Made by a program: the position numbers and the translations under genes
In this document: positions 1,214 to 5,219 of the stretch, piece after piece
Layout: every line of letters starts with the position of its first letter
Numbering within the stretch: the stretch's first letter is position 1
DNA from: a virus
Lineage: Duplodnaviria > Heunggongvirae > Uroviricota > Caudoviricetes
Reading direction: 5' to 3' (one strand)
Length of the DNA stretch: 5,219 nucleotides
IMG/VR virus record: IMGVR_UViG_3300029006_000029
The notes under the pieces: generated by a model
What the model saw: only the letters and a program-made list of their open reading frames with translations
The model's database searches: none
What the model was told of the DNA's origin: nothing

Positions 1214-3757
1214 ATGAGCACTGATAAAGAAACTTTTGCACTATATTGCGAAGCAAAAAATGACAAGGTCAGAAAACGCCTTGGGATTAAAGGTGGTTTT
1301 TACTGGACTACAGCAAAAAAATTATCTGTTGCCATCTCCCGCTGCATTACCGCAATGGATGATAATGATTATGACGAGGACGACTTTAAAAAACCTGTTC
1401 GCGTCCATTTACCCGTTGTGAATGACCTTCCTCCAGAAGGCGTGTTTGATACTGAATTCTGCAACCGTTACGAAAAAGGCGGGGAAGATGGTATCACAAT
1501 GATATTTATAGCTCCTTCCCCTTCAGCTCAGGACAAACCTGCCAGCACTGACAATACCAGCAGCGAAGCTGTTACAGGTGTCAGCCGTGACTGCGATGAA
1601 CAAAGTGACTCTCAGACAGAGAACGCAGATAAAAGCGAATCCCCGGACAGCAACGATGACTGCCCTGAATGTGAAATCCCCGTCTCCACCCTGAGTCTTA
1701 CCCATCGCTTCCTGCACCTCTACTTCTTTGGTCAGGAGTTCGACGAGAAATACAAACATCACGCCACACCAGAACAACGCAAGGACGTGATCCGCATCGA
1801 AATGGATATGGAAGATGGAAACATACAGAGCCTGCTTACTGCAGTACGTTCGCATCCTGAGCTGGATAAGCTGACAAACCATCATCTTGGAAGACTGGCG
1901 CATTCGGTGGAAAAGGCATTCACTCACGCAACAACACGCCGTATCAGCCCGGCAGAATTCGACAAGTTCATTTCCACCTGGATGAAGACTGACTACCTTG
2001 ATCAGGGGCTGTTGACAAAAGAGTGGGCAAAGGGAAATTGCGTATCTGAAATCAATCGCACCCCGTCCGGCGCTAATGCTGGCGGAGGAATTCTTACCGA
2101 TCGCGGTGAAGGTTTTGTCCACGATGATGCGTCAGTGGAACGTGACGTTGCCGCTGGCGTTCTGGCCCGTTCAATGGACATCGATATTTACAATCCACAT
2201 CCGGCACACGCCAAACGCATTGAAGAAATCGTTTCAGAGAATAAGCCGCCCTTTTCTGTTTTTCGTGACAAATTCATCGCCATGCCTGGTCACCTGGATT
2301 ATTCCCGCGCGATAGTAGTTGCGTCCGTGAAAGAAGCACCAATTGGTATCGAGGCTACTCCCCACCGTGTTACCGAATATCTGAACAAAGTACTGACCGA
2401 AACCGATCATGCCAACCCTGATCCGGAAATCGTGGATATTGCCTGCGGTCGCTCCTCTGCCCCTATCCCGCAGCGTGTAACAAAAGAAGGAAAACAGGAT
2501 GATGAAGAAAAACCGCAGCCATCTGGCGCAATGGCAGATGAACAGGCAACGACTGAAGCAGTGGAACCGGATACAACTGAACATAATCAGGACACGCAGT
2601 CGATGGATGCTCAGCCACAGATAAATTCTGTTGATGCGAAATATCAGAAACTGCGTGCAGAACTCTATGAAGCCAGGAAAAACATTCCACCCAAAAATCC
2701 TGTCGATGCAGATAAATTACTGGCTGCTTCTCACGGAGAATTTGTTGAAGGGATTAGCGACCCGAATGATCCAAAATGGGTGAAGGGGATTGAAACCCGC
2801 GATTCGGTGAACCATAACCAGCAAGAAACGGAACAGAAAGGCCATAAAGCGGAACAACACAGTCCAAATGCGCAACAAAACGAGCCAGAAACGAAACAGC
2901 CTGAACCAGTAGCGCAACAGGAACCGGAAAAAGTCTGCACAGCCTGCGGTCAGATCGGCGGCGGCAACTGTCCTGACTGTGGCGCGGTGATGGGCGACGC
3001 AACATACCATGAGACATTCAACGAAGAAAGCCAGGATGAAGCCCGGGAAAAAGATCCGGAGGAAATGGAAAGTGCCGGACTCCCGAACAAGGAGTGCACC
3101 GAAGGCGATCAACATGCCAATGGCAATAATGAAACAGGCGAGACAGCAAATCTCTTAATTAAGGTGAACGGTCATCGTGAAATCACATCCACCAGCAGGT
3201 TGTGGCACCATCTGATGATTGACCTTGAAACAATGGGCAAAAATCCTGACGCACCAATAGCCTCAATAGGCGCTGTATTTTTCGATCCACAAACCGGAGA
3301 TATGGGACCGGAATTTAGTAAGACTATCGATCTGGAAACTGCTGGCGGAGTCATTGATCGGGACACCATTAAATGGTGGCTTAAGCAATCACGCGAAGCG
3401 CAATCTGCCATTATGACCGATGAAATCCCGTTAGATGATGCACTGTTACAATTGCGGGAATTTATCGACGAAAACTCCGGTGAATTTTATGTTCAGGTCT
3501 GGGGAAATGGAGCCAACTTCGACAACACGATTTTGCGCCGTTCATACGAACGGCAGGGGATCCCCTGCCCGTGGCGTTACTACAACGATCGCGATGTACG
3601 CACAATCGTTGAGCTGGGGAAAGCCATAGACTTCGATGCCAGAACGGCTATTCCATTCGAAGGTGAGCGCCATAATGCACTTGATGACGCCCGTTACCAG
3701 GCAAAATACGTTTCAGTTATCTGGCAAAAACTGATCCCGAGTCAGGCTGATTCTTAA
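1214..3757 (+). CDS. large phage exonuclease, RecE-like (exodeoxyribonuclease VIII-like) N-terminal and central region with a C-terminal DEDDh (DnaQ/RNase T-like) 3'-5' exonuclease domain
   Basis: 847-aa ORF; ATG 1214 with GAGG at 1203-1206. Segments such as [21 protein letters not shown]...SGANAGGG...[50 protein letters not shown] and [13 protein letters not shown] match my unverified recollection of the N-terminal region of Rac RecE. The C-terminal ~190 aa carry DEDDh motifs: MIDLETMG (D at 3221-3223, E at 3227-3229), [12 protein letters not shown] (D at 3521-3523), HNALDDARY (H at 3671-3673, D at 3686-3688). Stop TAA 3755-3757. Confidence 0.9.
3182..3754 (+). other. DEDDh-type 3'-5' exonuclease domain (C-terminal domain of the 1214..3757 ORF)
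   Basis: Exo I D-x-E (DLE in LMIDLETMG), Exo II ([13 protein letters not shown]) and Exo III H-x4-D (HNALDD) occur in canonical order and spacing within about 190 residues. Confidence 0.8.
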
Positions 3758-3829: not shown

Positions 3830-4081
3830 ATGAGCGAAGTAATCATGATTGTCTCTCCCGGCAAATGGGTATCCGAAGAGCAGTTAATTGCGCTGAAAGG
3901 AATAAAAAAAGGTACGTTAAAAAAGGCCCGGGAAAAATCGTTTATGGAAGGAAGGGAATATAAGCATGTCGCTCATGACGGTATGCCATGGGATAACAGC
4001 CCATGCTTTTACAACCTGGAAGAAATTGATCGCTGGATTGAGCGCCAGGCATCAGCGAGACCAAGACGTCATCTTACTTGA
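3830..4081 (+). CDS. xis: excisionase-like protein (Xis), 83 aa
   Basis: Small ORF immediately upstream of and co-oriented with the integrase. Product (MSEVIMIVSPGKWVSEEQLIALKGIKKGTLKKAREKSFMEGREYKHVAHDGMPWDNSPCFYNLEEIDRWIERQ...) has the size and basic/aromatic character of phage excisionases. Alternative start ATG at 3845. Stop TGA 4079-4081. Confidence 0.75.
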   Translation: MSEVIMIVSPGKWVSEEQLIALKGIKKGTLKKAREKSFMEGREYKHVAHDGMPWDNSPCFYNLEEIDRWIERQASARPRRHLT

Positions 4082-4115: not shown

Positions 4116-5219
4116 ATGAAATATCCGACAGGCGTGGAAAACCATGGAGGGAAATTACGTATCTGGTTTGTTTATAAAGGCGTAAGAGTCAGGGAAAATC
4201 TGGGGGTTCCTGACACAGCAAAAAACAGGCGCGTNNNNNNNNNNCTACGCGCCTCTGTTTGTTACGCAATAAAAACTGGTGTTTTCGACTATGCAAAACA
4301 GTTTCCCTCCTCACGCAATCTGGAAAAATTTGGTGAGGCCCGACAAGATTTAACCATAAAAGAACTGGCTGAAAAATTTCTGGCACTGAAAGAAACTGAA
4401 GTCGCAAAAACATCACTCAACACATACCGTGCCGTCATCAAAAATATCCTGAGCATAATCGGTGAAAAAAATCTTGCCTCATCGATTAATAAAGAAAAAT
4501 TACTGGAGGTTCGTAAAGAGCTACTGACTGGATACCAGATCCCCAAAAGTAACTATATTGTTACACAACCAGGGAGATCGGCTGTAACTGTAAATAATTA
4601 CATGACAAATCTTAACGCCGTGTTCCAGTTTGGTGTTGATAACGGTTACTTGGCAGATAACCCGTTTAAGGGGATCTCGCCATTAAAGGAATCAAGAACC
4701 ATTCCGGATCCTCTTTCGCGGGAGGAATTCATCCGTCTTATCGATGCGTGCAGAAATCAGCAAGCCAAAAATTTATGGTGTGTTTCTGTTTATACTGGCG
4801 TTCGCCCTGGTGAGCTGTGTGCACTTGGATGGGAGGACATAGATCTGAAAAATGGAACAATGATGATCAGGAGAAATTTAGCAAAAGACCGTTTCACGGT
4901 ACCAAAAACACAGGCGGGAACCAATCGGGTCATTCATCTTATTAAGCCAGCAATCGACGCTCTCCGGAGTCAGATGACATTAACGAGACTGAGCAAAGAG
5001 CATATCATTGATGTTCACCTCAGAGAGTATGGCAGAACAGAAAAACAAAAATGCACCTTTGTTTTTCAACCTGAAGTGTCAGCGAGAGTAAAAAATTATG
5101 GTGACCATTTTACCGTTGACTCAATAAGGCAGATGTGGGACGCAGCGATAAAACGTGCCGGACTCCGCCATCGAAAATCATATCAGTCGAGACATACTTA
5201 TGCCTGCTGGTCGCTGACA
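4116..5219 (+). CDS. int: phage integrase, tyrosine recombinase family; 3'-partial (runs off the window end), contains a 10-N run
   Basis: Hand-translated from ATG 4116 (purine-rich GAGAGAAG just upstream; another in-frame ATG at 4101). The frame stays open for 368 codons to 5219, reading through the N-run. N-terminus MKYPTGVENHGGKLRIWFVYKGVRVREN resembles Rac-type IntR as I recall it. Box I motif VYTGVRPGELCAL is present (catalytic Arg codon 4803-4805) and box II begins at SRHTYACWSL at the window edge; the catalytic Tyr lies beyond the window. Absent from the ORF track because there is no in-window stop. Confidence 0.9.
   Translation, partial: MKYPTGVENHGGKLRIWFVYKGVRVRENLGVPDTAKNRRXXXXLRASVCYAIKTGVFDYAKQFPSSRNLEKFGEARQDLTIKELAEKFLALKETEVAKTSLNTYRAVIKNILSIIGEKNLASSINKEKLLEVRKELLTGYQIPKSNYIVTQPGRSAVTVNNYMTNLNAVFQFGVDNGYLADNPFKGISPLKESRTIPDPLSREEFIRLIDACRNQQAKNLWCVSVYTGVRPGELCALGWEDIDLKNGTMMIRRNLAKDRFTVPKTQAGTNRVIHLIKPAIDALRSQMTLTRLSKEHIIDVHLREYGRTEKQKCTFVFQPEVSARVKNYGDHFTVDSIRQMWDAAIKRAGLRHRKSYQSRHTYACWSLT
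4235..4244. other. run of 10 ambiguous bases (N) - assembly gap or masked bases inside the integrase gene
   Basis: Literal nnnnnnnnnn in the sequence. The integrase frame is maintained across it (GTN codon plus three NNN codons), so the run's length is compatible with the true sequence. Confidence 0.95.

What the first reader, a model, noticed from the sequence alone, without database searches (positions are those of the whole stretch)
2936..2980. Cys4 zinc-ribbon-like motif inside the linker of the exonuclease
Residues 575-589 read [15 protein letters not shown], i.e. CxxC-x7-CxxC, the spacing of a small zinc ribbon or knuckle. It sits between the RecE-like region and the DEDDh domain within otherwise acidic, probably disordered sequence. 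A second isolated CxxC (CPEC, nt 1661-1672) lies in the N-terminal acidic stretch. A metal-binding knuckle here could mediate nucleic-acid or protein contacts.
Basis: seen in the sequence. Interest (0 to 1): 0.4.

Follow-up and report, generated by a model that had tools for sequence, protein, structure and literature searches.

The report
Portable Cys4 zinc-knuckle module in phage exonuclease
The four-cysteine motif is real and strongly conserved: it is a ~30-residue, probably zinc-binding mini-domain that is also present in the classic E. coli RecE recombination nuclease and has been shuffled onto unrelated phage DNA enzymes such as Dam methylases, which gives a first handle on the unexplained non-catalytic part of RecE.

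Summary
In detail: nt 2936-2980 encode [15 protein letters not shown], residues 575-589 of an 847-aa ORF (1214-3757, +). This ORF joins a RecE N-terminal region to an Rv2179c-like DEDDh exonuclease.

Chance gives such a paired CxxC in about 8e-4 of composition-matched shuffles.

All four Cys are kept in 120/120 full-length homologues and 113/115 covering fragments. A distant RecE relative keeps the module at 79% identity although its folded core is only 30% identical. Another differs by 15 synonymous codon changes against 4 amino-acid changes.

The conserved unit is longer than reported: V-CxxCG-xxGGGx-CPDCG-[AP]VMGDATY-xE[TM]F.

- It is present in K-12 Rac RecE (C517-C531), upstream of the nuclease domain.
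- It is absent from most other RecE-family proteins.
- It forms the C-terminal tail of prophage Dam methyltransferases across Enterobacterales (hhalign 99.6%, E 1.5e-23).
- It also occurs in a small Mu-like phage protein and an Aeromonas phage protein.

No Pfam, NCBIfam or PHROG model covers it separately.

AlphaFold2 was low-confidence, so the metal geometry remains untested. The module has no Lys or Arg, so a protein-contact adaptor is likelier than DNA binding. The second CxxC (CPEC) is not conserved.

The parts
1214..3757 (+). 847-aa chimeric exonuclease ORF. It consists of a RecE/ExoVIII N-terminal region, an acidic linker and an Rv2179c-like DEDDh 3'-5' exonuclease domain.
   Evidence: ORF list. 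Pfam PF06630 and PF16473. NCBIfam NF007259 positions 1-602 of 877 only. aa 58-649 align to K-12 RecE aa 50-591 at 56% identity, after which similarity ends. The DNA is 97% identical to E. coli prophage genes annotated 'exonuclease' or '3'-5' exonuclease'.
1214..2479 (+). Folded RecE-type N-terminal region (aa 1-422), of unknown function. It is interrupted by a disordered acidic insert at aa 101-149.
   Evidence: AF2 pLDDT is mostly 85-95 for aa 1-100 and 150-420, and below 50 for aa 101-149. It is 30% identical to the distant relative P0297 over aa 147-421.
1661..1672 (+). Isolated CPEC (aa 150-153). It is not conserved and is not part of the module.
   Evidence: Translation. Present in 27/121 aligned sequences; in the other 94, C150 is a gap and C153 is Met. 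Absent from K-12 RecE.
2480..3193 (+). Acidic, low-complexity, predicted-disordered linker (aa 423-660) that carries two conserved islands.
   Evidence: pLDDT below 50 over aa 423-472 and 524-680. pI 4.5, 21% D+E, 41% Q/N/P/S/T/G.
2705..2791 (+). Linker island 1, [29 protein letters not shown] (aa 498-526). It is conserved in RecE-family linkers whether or not they carry the Cys4 module.
   Evidence: Nearly invariant columns in A1. Present in P0245, P0246, P0252, P0254 and P0256, which lack the Cys4 module, and in P0380.
2936..2980 (+). The reported Cys4 core: two knuckles, CTACG and CPDCG, joined by a Gly-rich turn (C575, C578, C586, C589).
   Evidence: Synonymous TGC/TGT variation occurs at all four Cys codons.
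2933..3019 (+). The full conserved module (aa 574-602): V[28 protein letters not shown].
   Evidence: Invariant C, C, G, C, P, D, C, V, G, T, Y across nine diverse RecE-type modules. 23/29 identical to P0297, whose folded core is only 30% identical. hhalign against Dam tails gives 99.6%, E 1.5e-23, over 33 columns. Against L013, 21/25 aa are identical with 15 synonymous codon differences.
3206..3724 (+). Rv2179c-like DEDDh 3'-5' exonuclease domain (aa 665-837). It replaces the PD-(D/E)XK nuclease of RecE.
   Evidence: PF16473 E 1.4e-67. PDB 8kel 'Exodeoxyribonuclease' E 8e-6. The DEDDh residues read directly from the sequence are D670, E672, D770, H820 and D825 (inference from the family motifs).

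Best explanation
The motif is the core of a ~30-residue autonomous mini-domain. Two rubredoxin/zinc-ribbon-type knuckles (CxxCG and CPDCG) are joined by a GGG turn. They most likely chelate one structural Zn2+ through four thiolates. A short conserved segment (VMGDATYxE[TM]F) follows and is presented from the knuckle.

The mini-domain is not part of either nuclease active site. It is a portable cassette that temperate phages of Enterobacterales, and at least one Aeromonas phage, have attached to different early-region DNA enzymes:
- RecE-type PD-(D/E)XK exonucleases, including K-12 Rac RecE;
- DEDDh exonuclease fusions such as this one;
- Dam methyltransferases, as a C-terminal tail;
- a small Mu-like early protein.

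The carriers share no catalytic chemistry and no common phage-encoded neighbour. The module is uncharged to acidic. It most likely works as a zinc-stabilised docking knob that tethers its carrier to a common partner, probably a host protein at replicating or recombining DNA.

Shown: sequence, conservation, purifying selection, shuffling between carriers, and absence of a curated family.

Inferred: zinc binding, the fold, and the adaptor role. The partner is unknown.
For: - **Conservation.** The four Cys are invariant in 120/120 full-length homologues and 113/115 covering fragments, while neighbouring columns vary.
- **Selection acts on the protein.** Synonymous codon variation occurs at every Cys, Gly, Pro, Asp and Thr position that is invariant as amino acid. 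The window versus Pseudocitrobacter L013 shows 21/25 aa identical with 15 synonymous against 4 non-synonymous codon differences.
- **Island of conservation.** The module is 79% identical to P0297, the folded core is 30% identical, and the linker flanks cannot be aligned.
- **Knuckle signatures.** CxxCG and CPxCG are present. All weak Pfam, NCBIfam and PDB hits are zinc ribbons or rubredoxin-like knuckles, including TFIIB, DZR, Zn_ribbon_3, RadA and RpoE''.
- **Portability.** The same module is found in K-12 RecE at C517-C531. It is found with PD-(D/E)XK, with DEDDh, with an alternative N-terminus and with no nuclease at all. It forms the C-terminal tail of 82-101 of 120 Dam homologues, with hhalign 99.6%, E 1.5e-23. 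It occurs in a 92-aa protein of a Mu-like phage and, in variant form, in a 299-aa Aeromonas phage protein.
- **Independent cross-hits.** Dam tails, the Mu-like protein and the Aeromonas protein hit the RecE model NF007259 only at positions 522-565, and the exonuclease PHROG 20376 only at positions 252-289.
- **Optional within the family.** Only 8 of 84 long RecE-N-terminal representatives carry it.
- **Charge.** The module has no Lys or Arg, and the flanks have pI 4.3-4.7.
Against: - There are no metal data.
- AF2 did not fold the module confidently. pLDDT was 52 for the 41-aa construct. In the full-length model it was about 40-50, only slightly above the ~28 of the flanks.
- Foldseek on the 41-aa model gave nothing significant.
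- No zinc-ribbon Pfam model reaches its gathering score.
- The 7-residue spacer is shorter than in most characterised zinc ribbons.
- Rare natural variants lack one Cys: P0044 C3->Y, P0073 C3->G, P0491 C4->Y, and P0321/P0376 with a degenerate first knuckle.
- Most RecE relatives do without the module.
- The adaptor role and host partner are pure inference. No partner was identified.
Confidence: 0.6

Rival explanations
1. The module is a nucleic-acid-binding zinc finger. It grips a DNA end or ssDNA and helps load the attached enzyme, as zinc ribbons do in primase, topoisomerase I or RadA.
For: Every carrier is a DNA enzyme or an early-region phage protein. Weak sequence similarity includes the RadA N-terminal zinc finger and transcription-factor zinc ribbons.
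Against: The window module has no Lys or Arg, and its flanks are strongly acidic. The RecE-type consensus has no basic residue, and Dam tails have a single Arg. The conserved post-knuckle segment is hydrophobic/aromatic followed by acidic residues, which suits a protein contact.
Confidence: 0.15
2. The four Cys bind iron (a rubredoxin-type Fe(Cys)4 centre) or act as a redox or zinc-release switch. This would regulate the enzyme during prophage induction rather than serve as a purely structural zinc site.
For: CxxCG plus CPxCG are exactly the rubredoxin knuckle signatures (direct reading, established knowledge). Weak hits to rubrerythrin-like and rubredoxin-like models were found. Many Dam tails carry a fifth or sixth Cys, as in CCPDCGPC.
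Against: The module lacks the ~29-residue spacer and aromatic core of rubredoxins. None of the carriers has a redox partner or function. In non-redox proteins such knuckles almost always bind Zn (established knowledge of zinc-ribbon folds).
Confidence: 0.1
3. The module is an oligomerisation element. Knuckles from two chains share a metal, like the Rad50 zinc hook, and so bridge two enzyme molecules and hence two DNA ends.
For: Full-length RecE specifically enhances linear-linear (end-to-end) recombination, and the N-terminal part has no known role (PMC11611040 and PMC11610958). Bridging two ends would fit that phenotype.
Against: Four Cys within 15 residues of one chain, joined by a Gly turn, satisfy one metal intramolecularly. 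The module also sits on Dam and on a 92-aa protein, where end-bridging has no obvious role. There is no flanking coiled coil.
Confidence: 0.08
4. It is not a metal site. The conservation would then reflect a linear peptide motif, a DNA-level element such as a recombination junction for mosaic exchange, or a recent common origin.
For: AF2 gives no confident fold. The module sits in the middle of a cassette (aa ~495-650) that is exchanged between different N- and C-terminal domains.
Against: Many synonymous differences accompany an unchanged peptide, which excludes a DNA-level constraint. The four Cys are the most invariant positions in two carrier families whose cores are only 54-68% identical (Dam) or 30% identical (RecE). 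The chance probability of the pattern is about 8e-4.
Confidence: 0.07

Closest known systems
Exonuclease VIII / RecE of the E. coli K-12 Rac prophage (b1350, 866 aa)
   Same: It carries the same module, [28 protein letters not shown], at C517/C520/C528/C531, in the same acidic linker and preceded by the same island 1. Window aa 58-649 align to RecE aa 50-591 at 56% identity. Reviews describe this part of RecE as having unknown or unclear function.
   Different: RecE ends in a PD-(D/E)XK 5'-3' exonuclease (nuclease fragment 564-866; PDB 3H4R) and is followed by recT. The window protein ends in a DEDDh 3'-5' exonuclease and is followed directly by xis/int. The module lies upstream of the 564-866 nuclease fragment named in the review.
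Zinc-ribbon / rubredoxin-like zinc-knuckle domains (e.g. Pfam Zn_ribbon_3 PF13248, Zn_Ribbon_1 PF13240, DZR PF12773, TFIIB Zn_Ribbon_TF PF08271; RadA N-terminal C4 finger)
   Same: It has two CxxC knuckles with the CPxCG signature and a hydrophobic residue before the first and after the last knuckle. The only database similarities found are to these families.
   Different: All scores are below the gathering thresholds (best 20.9 bits against a cut-off of 27). The spacer is only 7 residues and is Gly-rich. A conserved 13-residue C-terminal extension (VMGDATYxE[TM]F) has no counterpart. The fold and metal are not verified.
C-terminal tails of prophage Dam (D12 class N6-adenine) methyltransferases of Enterobacterales (e.g. 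Enterobacter phage phiT5282H Dam, Trabulsiella guamensis P0387)
   Same: The module is homologous: consensus KVCxGCGRAGGGxCPDCGPxMGDATYxEM. hhalign against the RecE-type module gives 99.6%, E 1.5e-23.
   Different: Here it is C-terminal rather than internal. It is followed by about 15 residues that usually end in an acidic stretch plus Phe (68/120). It often carries extra Cys. The carrier is a methyltransferase.
Lambdoid Rec-module DnaQ-like 3'-5' nucleases (Genome Res 2025, PMC12315714)
   Same: That paper reports that lambdoid recombination modules can encode DnaQ-like (DEDD) 3'-5' nucleases, and describes RecE-related proteins that lack a nuclease domain. This matches the architectures seen here.
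   Different: The parts of the paper I read do not mention the Cys4 module, zinc, or the shared linker cassette. The only 'zinc' occurrences are in a reference title.

Membership tests
Cys4 zinc ribbon / zinc knuckle | Two CxxC pairs close in sequence, with the knuckle signatures CxxCG and CPxCG | tested here: met
   CTACG...CPDCG at aa 575-590. The same signatures occur in all RecE-type and Dam-type copies.
Cys4 zinc ribbon / zinc knuckle | All four ligand Cys conserved across homologues | tested here: met
   120/120 full-length homologues and 113/115 fragments. Invariant in A2 and A4. The rare exceptions are few-member clusters (1-3 sequences), one of them frameshifted.
Cys4 zinc ribbon / zinc knuckle | Score above the curated threshold of a zinc-ribbon profile | tested here: not met
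   The best Pfam hits are YhfH at 20.9 bits (cut-off 27), Zn_Ribbon_TF at 20.2 (29) and DZR at 16.5 (27.3). Best PDB profile hit E 0.028.
Cys4 zinc ribbon / zinc knuckle | A fold that brings the four thiolates within metal-binding distance | tested here: inconclusive
   AF2 pLDDT was 52 for the 41-aa construct, with isolated beta-bridges at residues 9, 16, 21 and 25, and about 40-50 in the full-length model. No coordinates were returned, so distances could not be measured. Foldseek was not significant.
Cys4 zinc ribbon / zinc knuckle | Stoichiometric Zn2+ binding | not testable with these tools
   Needs ICP-MS, a PAR assay or Co2+ titration on protein or peptide.
RecE / exodeoxyribonuclease VIII (NCBIfam NF007259, Pfam PF06630 plus a PD-(D/E)XK nuclease) | RecE-type N-terminal region | tested here: met
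   PF06630 scores 47 bits (cut-off 25). NF007259 positions 1-602 match with E 3e-258.
RecE / exodeoxyribonuclease VIII (NCBIfam NF007259, Pfam PF06630 plus a PD-(D/E)XK nuclease) | C-terminal PD-(D/E)XK 5'-3' exonuclease domain, and a full-length score above the equivalog cut-off | tested here: not met
   NF007259 scores 859 against a cut-off of 1269, and model positions 603-877 are unmatched. No similarity to RecE after aa 591. The C-terminus is PF16473 instead.
Rv2179c-like DEDDh 3'-5' exonuclease (PF16473) | Profile match above threshold, with DEDDh catalytic residues | tested here: met
   227 bits (cut-off 27), aa 665-837 matching profile positions 1-177 of 177. D670, E672, D770, H820 and D825 read from the sequence.
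Rubredoxin (Fe(Cys)4 electron carrier) | Knuckles separated by about 29 residues that form a three-stranded sheet with an aromatic core | tested here: not met
   The spacer is 7 residues (6-8 in variants) and Gly-rich.
Rad50-type zinc hook | A single CxxC per chain at the apex of an antiparallel coiled coil | tested here: not met
   There are two CxxC per chain, and no helices are predicted between aa 507 and 660.

The most novel reading that the evidence does not exclude
The module is a previously unrecognised, horizontally shuffled zinc-knuckle adaptor. Through it, temperate phages (lambdoid, P2-like, Mu-like and Aeromonas phages) would dock quite different early enzymes onto one and the same host target at replicating or broken DNA. 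The enzymes are RecE, DnaQ-like exonuclease fusions, Dam methylase and a small Mu-like early protein. Candidate targets include SSB, the clamp or the replisome. In RecE this docking would be part of what makes the full-length protein superior for linear-linear recombination.
Probability: 0.25. Interest if true: 0.65.

Novelty: new member of a known kind. Interest (0 to 1): 0.5.

Why it matters
RecE/RecT is a workhorse of recombineering. Full-length RecE is needed for efficient linear-linear recombination (direct cloning). Even so, two 2023 reviews state that the function of its ~600-residue non-catalytic part is unknown or unclear.

A strictly conserved, probably zinc-binding knob in that region gives a small, mutable, testable target. 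It is shared with DEDDh exonuclease fusions, phage Dam methylases and other early proteins. Useful experiments include Cys-to-Ser mutants, deletion and transplantation of the module, and using it as a pull-down bait.

The module's DNA is present in 4,736 of 5,426 complete E. coli genomes, about 10,000 copies in total. No separate model exists for it in Pfam, NCBIfam or PHROGs. Annotation would therefore also benefit.

If the carriers share a partner, that would reveal a common recruitment route used by several families of temperate phage.

Tried and rejected
- **AF2 on the 41-aa module with a 41-sequence alignment.** pLDDT 52 and pTM 0.21, so uninformative.
- **AF2 on the full protein with a 122-sequence alignment.** The N-terminal region folded well. 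The module stayed at pLDDT about 40-50. The DEDDh domain was also poorly modelled because few rows of that alignment covered it.
- **Coordinates.** Model files are not exposed to scripts, so Cys-Cys distances could not be measured.
- **Foldseek of the small model against the PDB.** The best E-value was 8 (RNA polymerase subunit P/Rpb12-type chains), which is not evidence.
- **Pfam, NCBIfam and PDB profile searches with the module alone.** These gave only sub-threshold zinc-ribbon hits.
- **YdaE.** This is the annotated 'zinc-binding protein' next to racC-recE in K-12. I checked it as a possible homologue, but it has a different Cys pattern and is unrelated.
- **Literature searches** for RecE plus zinc, and for a Dam zinc-ribbon tail, found nothing relevant. 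The first search was spoiled because 'RecE' matched 'receptor'.
- **The GTDB species scan** used only the peptide pattern [NHK]CPDC[GS][APS]V[MT]. Its narrow result (Escherichia, Shigella, Pseudocitrobacter, Trabulsiella) therefore understates the distribution, because most Dam tails have other residues before CPDC. One hit, in a Ruminiclostridium MAG, is an ordinary double zinc ribbon and was discarded.
- **Codon table.** The segments were selected with a regex that required the Cys, so Cys invariance in that table is circular.
- **CPEC as a second metal ligand pair.** Rejected because it is not conserved.
Full report
**What is in the window.** The window is the early-left end of an Escherichia lambdoid prophage. 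In order it carries a Rha-family regulator, dicB, a DUF1482 gene, one large ORF (1214-3757, +, 847 aa), an excisionase (3830-4081) and the start of an integrase. The large ORF is 97% identical in DNA to genes annotated 'exonuclease' or '3'-5' exonuclease' in E. coli chromosomes.

It is a chimera.
- The N-terminal ~650 residues match RecE/exonuclease VIII. PF06630 matches, and NCBIfam NF007259 matches at positions 1-602 of 877 with E 3e-258, which is below the equivalog cut-off.
- The C-terminus is an Rv2179c-like DEDDh 3'-5' exonuclease (PF16473, E 1.4e-67, aa 665-837).
- Against K-12 RecE, aa 58-649 align with RecE 50-591 at 56% identity. Similarity then stops, exactly where the PD-(D/E)XK nuclease of RecE begins.

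**The observation.** nt 2936-2980 translate to [15 protein letters not shown], residues 575-589. nt 1661-1672 translate to CPEC. With 14 Cys in 847 residues, a CxxC-x(2-20)-CxxC pair arises in 8.4e-4 of 200,000 random placements, and the x7 spacing in 5.5e-5.

The surrounding region (aa 423-660) is acidic, with pI 4.5 and 21% D+E. AlphaFold2 predicts it to be disordered, with pLDDT below 50 over aa 423-472 and 524-680.

**Conservation among close homologues.**
- In 120 full-length homologues (77-97% identical), all four Cys are invariant, while nearby columns hold up to six residue types.
- Of 120 fragment hits to the linker, 115 cover the site and 113 keep all four Cys. The two exceptions (C3->Y, and C3->G in a frameshifted sequence) are few-member clusters.

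**Conservation at long range.** This is the more telling evidence.
- Representatives P0297 and P0380, and the Pseudocitrobacter locus L013, have linkers that cannot be aligned with the window. They still keep V-C-T-G-C-G-A-[VI]-G-G-G-H-C-P-D-C-G-A-V-[MT]-G-D-A-T-Y.
- Pairwise, the window protein and P0297 are 30% identical over the folded N-terminal core but 23/29 (79%) identical over the module.
- At the DNA level, the window and L013 modules share 21/25 residues with 15 synonymous and only 4 non-synonymous codon differences.
- Every position that is invariant as amino acid (Cys, Gly, Pro, Asp, Thr) shows synonymous codon variation among 56 distinct DNA versions. That set was selected with a Cys-requiring regex, so it is used here only for codon usage.

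The constraint therefore acts on the peptide, not on the DNA. The conserved unit is also longer than reported: aa 574-602, V[28 protein letters not shown].

The second CxxC (CPEC) is not conserved. It is present in 27 of 121 aligned sequences and absent from K-12 RecE. One stray CxxC is expected in about 20% of shuffles.

**The module is in canonical RecE but is not a general RecE feature.** K-12 Rac RecE carries [28 protein letters not shown] at C517/C520/C528/C531. That lies upstream of the nuclease fragment (residues 564-866). [quoted passage not shown] That review never mentions zinc or cysteine. [quoted passage not shown]

Among 84 long representatives of the RecE N-terminal family (50% identity clusters), only 8 carry the module. 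Others, such as P0245, P0252, P0254 and P0256, keep a different linker island ([20 protein letters not shown], window aa 498-526). Between that island and their PD-(D/E)XK domain they have only acidic filler. The module is therefore an optional insert.

**The module moves between carriers.** Within Escherichia-type prophages the linker cassette containing the module is combined in several ways:
- RecE N-terminus plus PD-(D/E)XK;
- RecE N-terminus plus DEDDh, as in the window;
- an unrelated N-terminus plus DEDDh (P0257-type, the commonest form in IMG/VR samples);
- RecE N-terminus with no nuclease at all (P0259).

The Trabulsiella hit from the species scan turned out to be a Dam (D12 class) methyltransferase whose last 40 residues are the module. 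I searched with that Dam.
- 101 of its 120 best homologues end in a CxxC...CxxC tail, and 82 of them have the canonical CxxC-x7-CxxCG form. They come from Klebsiella, Enterobacter, Citrobacter, Serratia, Pectobacterium, Dickeya, Pantoea, Yersinia, Salmonella, E. coli and others.
- The tail consensus is KVCxGCGRAGGGxCPDCGPxMGDATYxEM.
- A profile-profile comparison of RecE-type modules with Dam tails gives 99.6% probability, E 1.5e-23, over 33 columns.

Independent confirmation comes from curated models. Dam tails hit the RecE model NF007259 only at positions 526-552, and the exonuclease PHROG 20376 only at positions 256-282.

Two further carriers turned up.
- A 92-aa protein in a Mu-like phage lies just downstream of the MuA- and MuB-like genes and upstream of DUF3164 and GemA.
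- A 299-aa hypothetical protein of Aeromonas phages 13/14AhydR10PP has a variant first knuckle: [31 protein letters not shown].

In the P2-like Enterobacter phage phiT5282H, the tailed dam lies one small ORF upstream of the replication nickase gene. The DNA encoding the module is present in 4,736 of 5,426 complete E. coli genomes, 9,970 copies in all.

**What it most likely is.** CxxCG and CPxCG are the classic paired knuckles of rubredoxin-like zinc ribbons (established knowledge of zinc-finger fold groups). The only similarities found in Pfam, NCBIfam and PDB sequences are to zinc ribbons: TFIIB, DZR, Zn_ribbon_3, RadA, RpoE'', a VapC6 zinc ribbon and small archaeal zinc-finger proteins. All are below threshold, as expected for a 25-residue element.

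Four features make a structural Zn(Cys)4 site the best reading (my estimate about 0.75):
- four invariant thiols within 15 residues;
- a Gly-rich turn between the knuckles;
- a hydrophobic residue before the first knuckle;
- purifying selection across carriers.

- AF2 gave pLDDT 52 for the isolated module and 40-50 in the full-length model, a small bump over the ~28 of the flanks.
- No coordinates were available.
- Foldseek found nothing significant.

This is inconclusive rather than negative. The alignments were shallow and AF2 models no metal.

**How it probably works.** The following points bear on mechanism.
- The carriers have unrelated chemistry: 5'-3' PD-(D/E)XK, 3'-5' DEDDh, N6-adenine methylation, and no enzyme at all.
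- The module sits in a disordered linker or at a free C-terminus.
- Most RecE relatives lack it.

So it is not catalytic.

- It has no Lys or Arg and its surroundings are acidic, which argues against direct DNA binding.
- The segment following the knuckles (VMGDATYxE[TM]F, then acidic residues) is hydrophobic and aromatic.

I therefore favour a zinc-stabilised docking knob that tethers its carrier to a common partner. The carriers come from lambdoid, P2-like, Mu-like and Aeromonas phages, and I saw no shared phage-encoded neighbour. The partner is therefore more likely a host protein. That step is inference only, and I found no candidate.

The rivals are given in the rival-explanations section with their tests. 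They are a DNA-binding finger, an iron or redox centre, an intermolecular zinc hook, and no metal site at all.

**Comparison with what is known, and novelty.** As a kind of thing, a Cys4 zinc knuckle or ribbon is ordinary. As a family, this module has no separate model in Pfam-A, NCBIfam or PHROGs. It is not mentioned in the RecE reviews or the lambdoid Rec-module survey that I could read. Its sharing between RecE-type exonucleases and phage Dam methyltransferases did not appear in any paper I found.

The window protein itself is not a RecE equivalog, because it lacks the PD-(D/E)XK domain. It is a RecE-N::DEDDh fusion, in line with the recently noted DnaQ-like nucleases of lambdoid Rec modules. 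I rate the module a new member of a known kind. Its interest is moderate because it sits in a long-unexplained part of a widely used recombineering enzyme and offers direct experiments.

Noticed in passing
window 1214-3757 and 3830-4081: The RecE N-terminal region is fused to a DEDDh 3'-5' exonuclease in place of the PD-(D/E)XK 5'-3' nuclease. The gene is followed directly by xis and int, and there is no recT-like annealase gene in the window. This differs from Rac, where recT follows recE. A 3'-5' exonuclease without a partner annealase is an odd 'recombination module'.
   Followed up: partly
window 2705-2791 (aa 498-526): There is a second conserved island in the linker, [29 protein letters not shown]. 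It is more widespread than the Cys4 module. It is kept in RecE-family proteins that lack the module (P0245, P0246, P0252, P0254, P0256) and falls partly on an AF2 helix (aa 499-506). It may be another short interaction motif.
   Followed up: partly
P0387-P0506 (Dam homologues); L014 3125-4123; L218 2149-3120: The prophage Dam tails that carry the module usually continue for about 15 residues and end in an acidic stretch plus a terminal aromatic residue (..GAFDDLEAF, ..ETQEPF, ..ENPIPL). 68 of 120 end in Phe. This is reminiscent of the SSB C-terminal tip DDDIPF. Some tails have extra Cys (CCPDCGPC), and some have an entirely different Cys-rich tail.
   Followed up: partly
P0244 (703 aa representative), residues ~515-530: This is an in-frame RecE::RecT fusion. 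The RecE sequence runs up to CNACGQTGGD, in the middle of the module, and then continues directly into internal RecT sequence. The second knuckle, the whole nuclease domain and the RecT N-terminus are deleted.
   Followed up: no
P0246 (775 aa representative), residues ~530-775: This RecE-N-terminal relative keeps island 1 but lacks both the Cys4 module and any recognisable nuclease. Its C-terminal half is a different domain that I did not identify.
   Followed up: no
window 4235-4244: A run of 10 ambiguous bases (N) lies downstream of the excisionase, inside what should be the integrase gene. It shows up as XXXX in an antisense ORF translation.
   Followed up: no
window 2963-2971: The Gly-Gly-Gly turn is encoded by GGC GGC GGC. 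Homologues vary here in residue (GGD, SGG, GDG), and some Dam tails have a spacer one residue shorter (x6). This is consistent with slippage-prone triplet repeats generating variation in spacer length.
   Followed up: no
window 1514-1660 (aa 101-149): A disordered acidic Ser/Asp/Glu-rich insert interrupts the folded N-terminal region (pLDDT 27-38). It is an indel hotspot: 94 of 121 aligned sequences have a gap at the two Cys positions checked here (C127, C150), the latter being the start of CPEC.
   Followed up: partly
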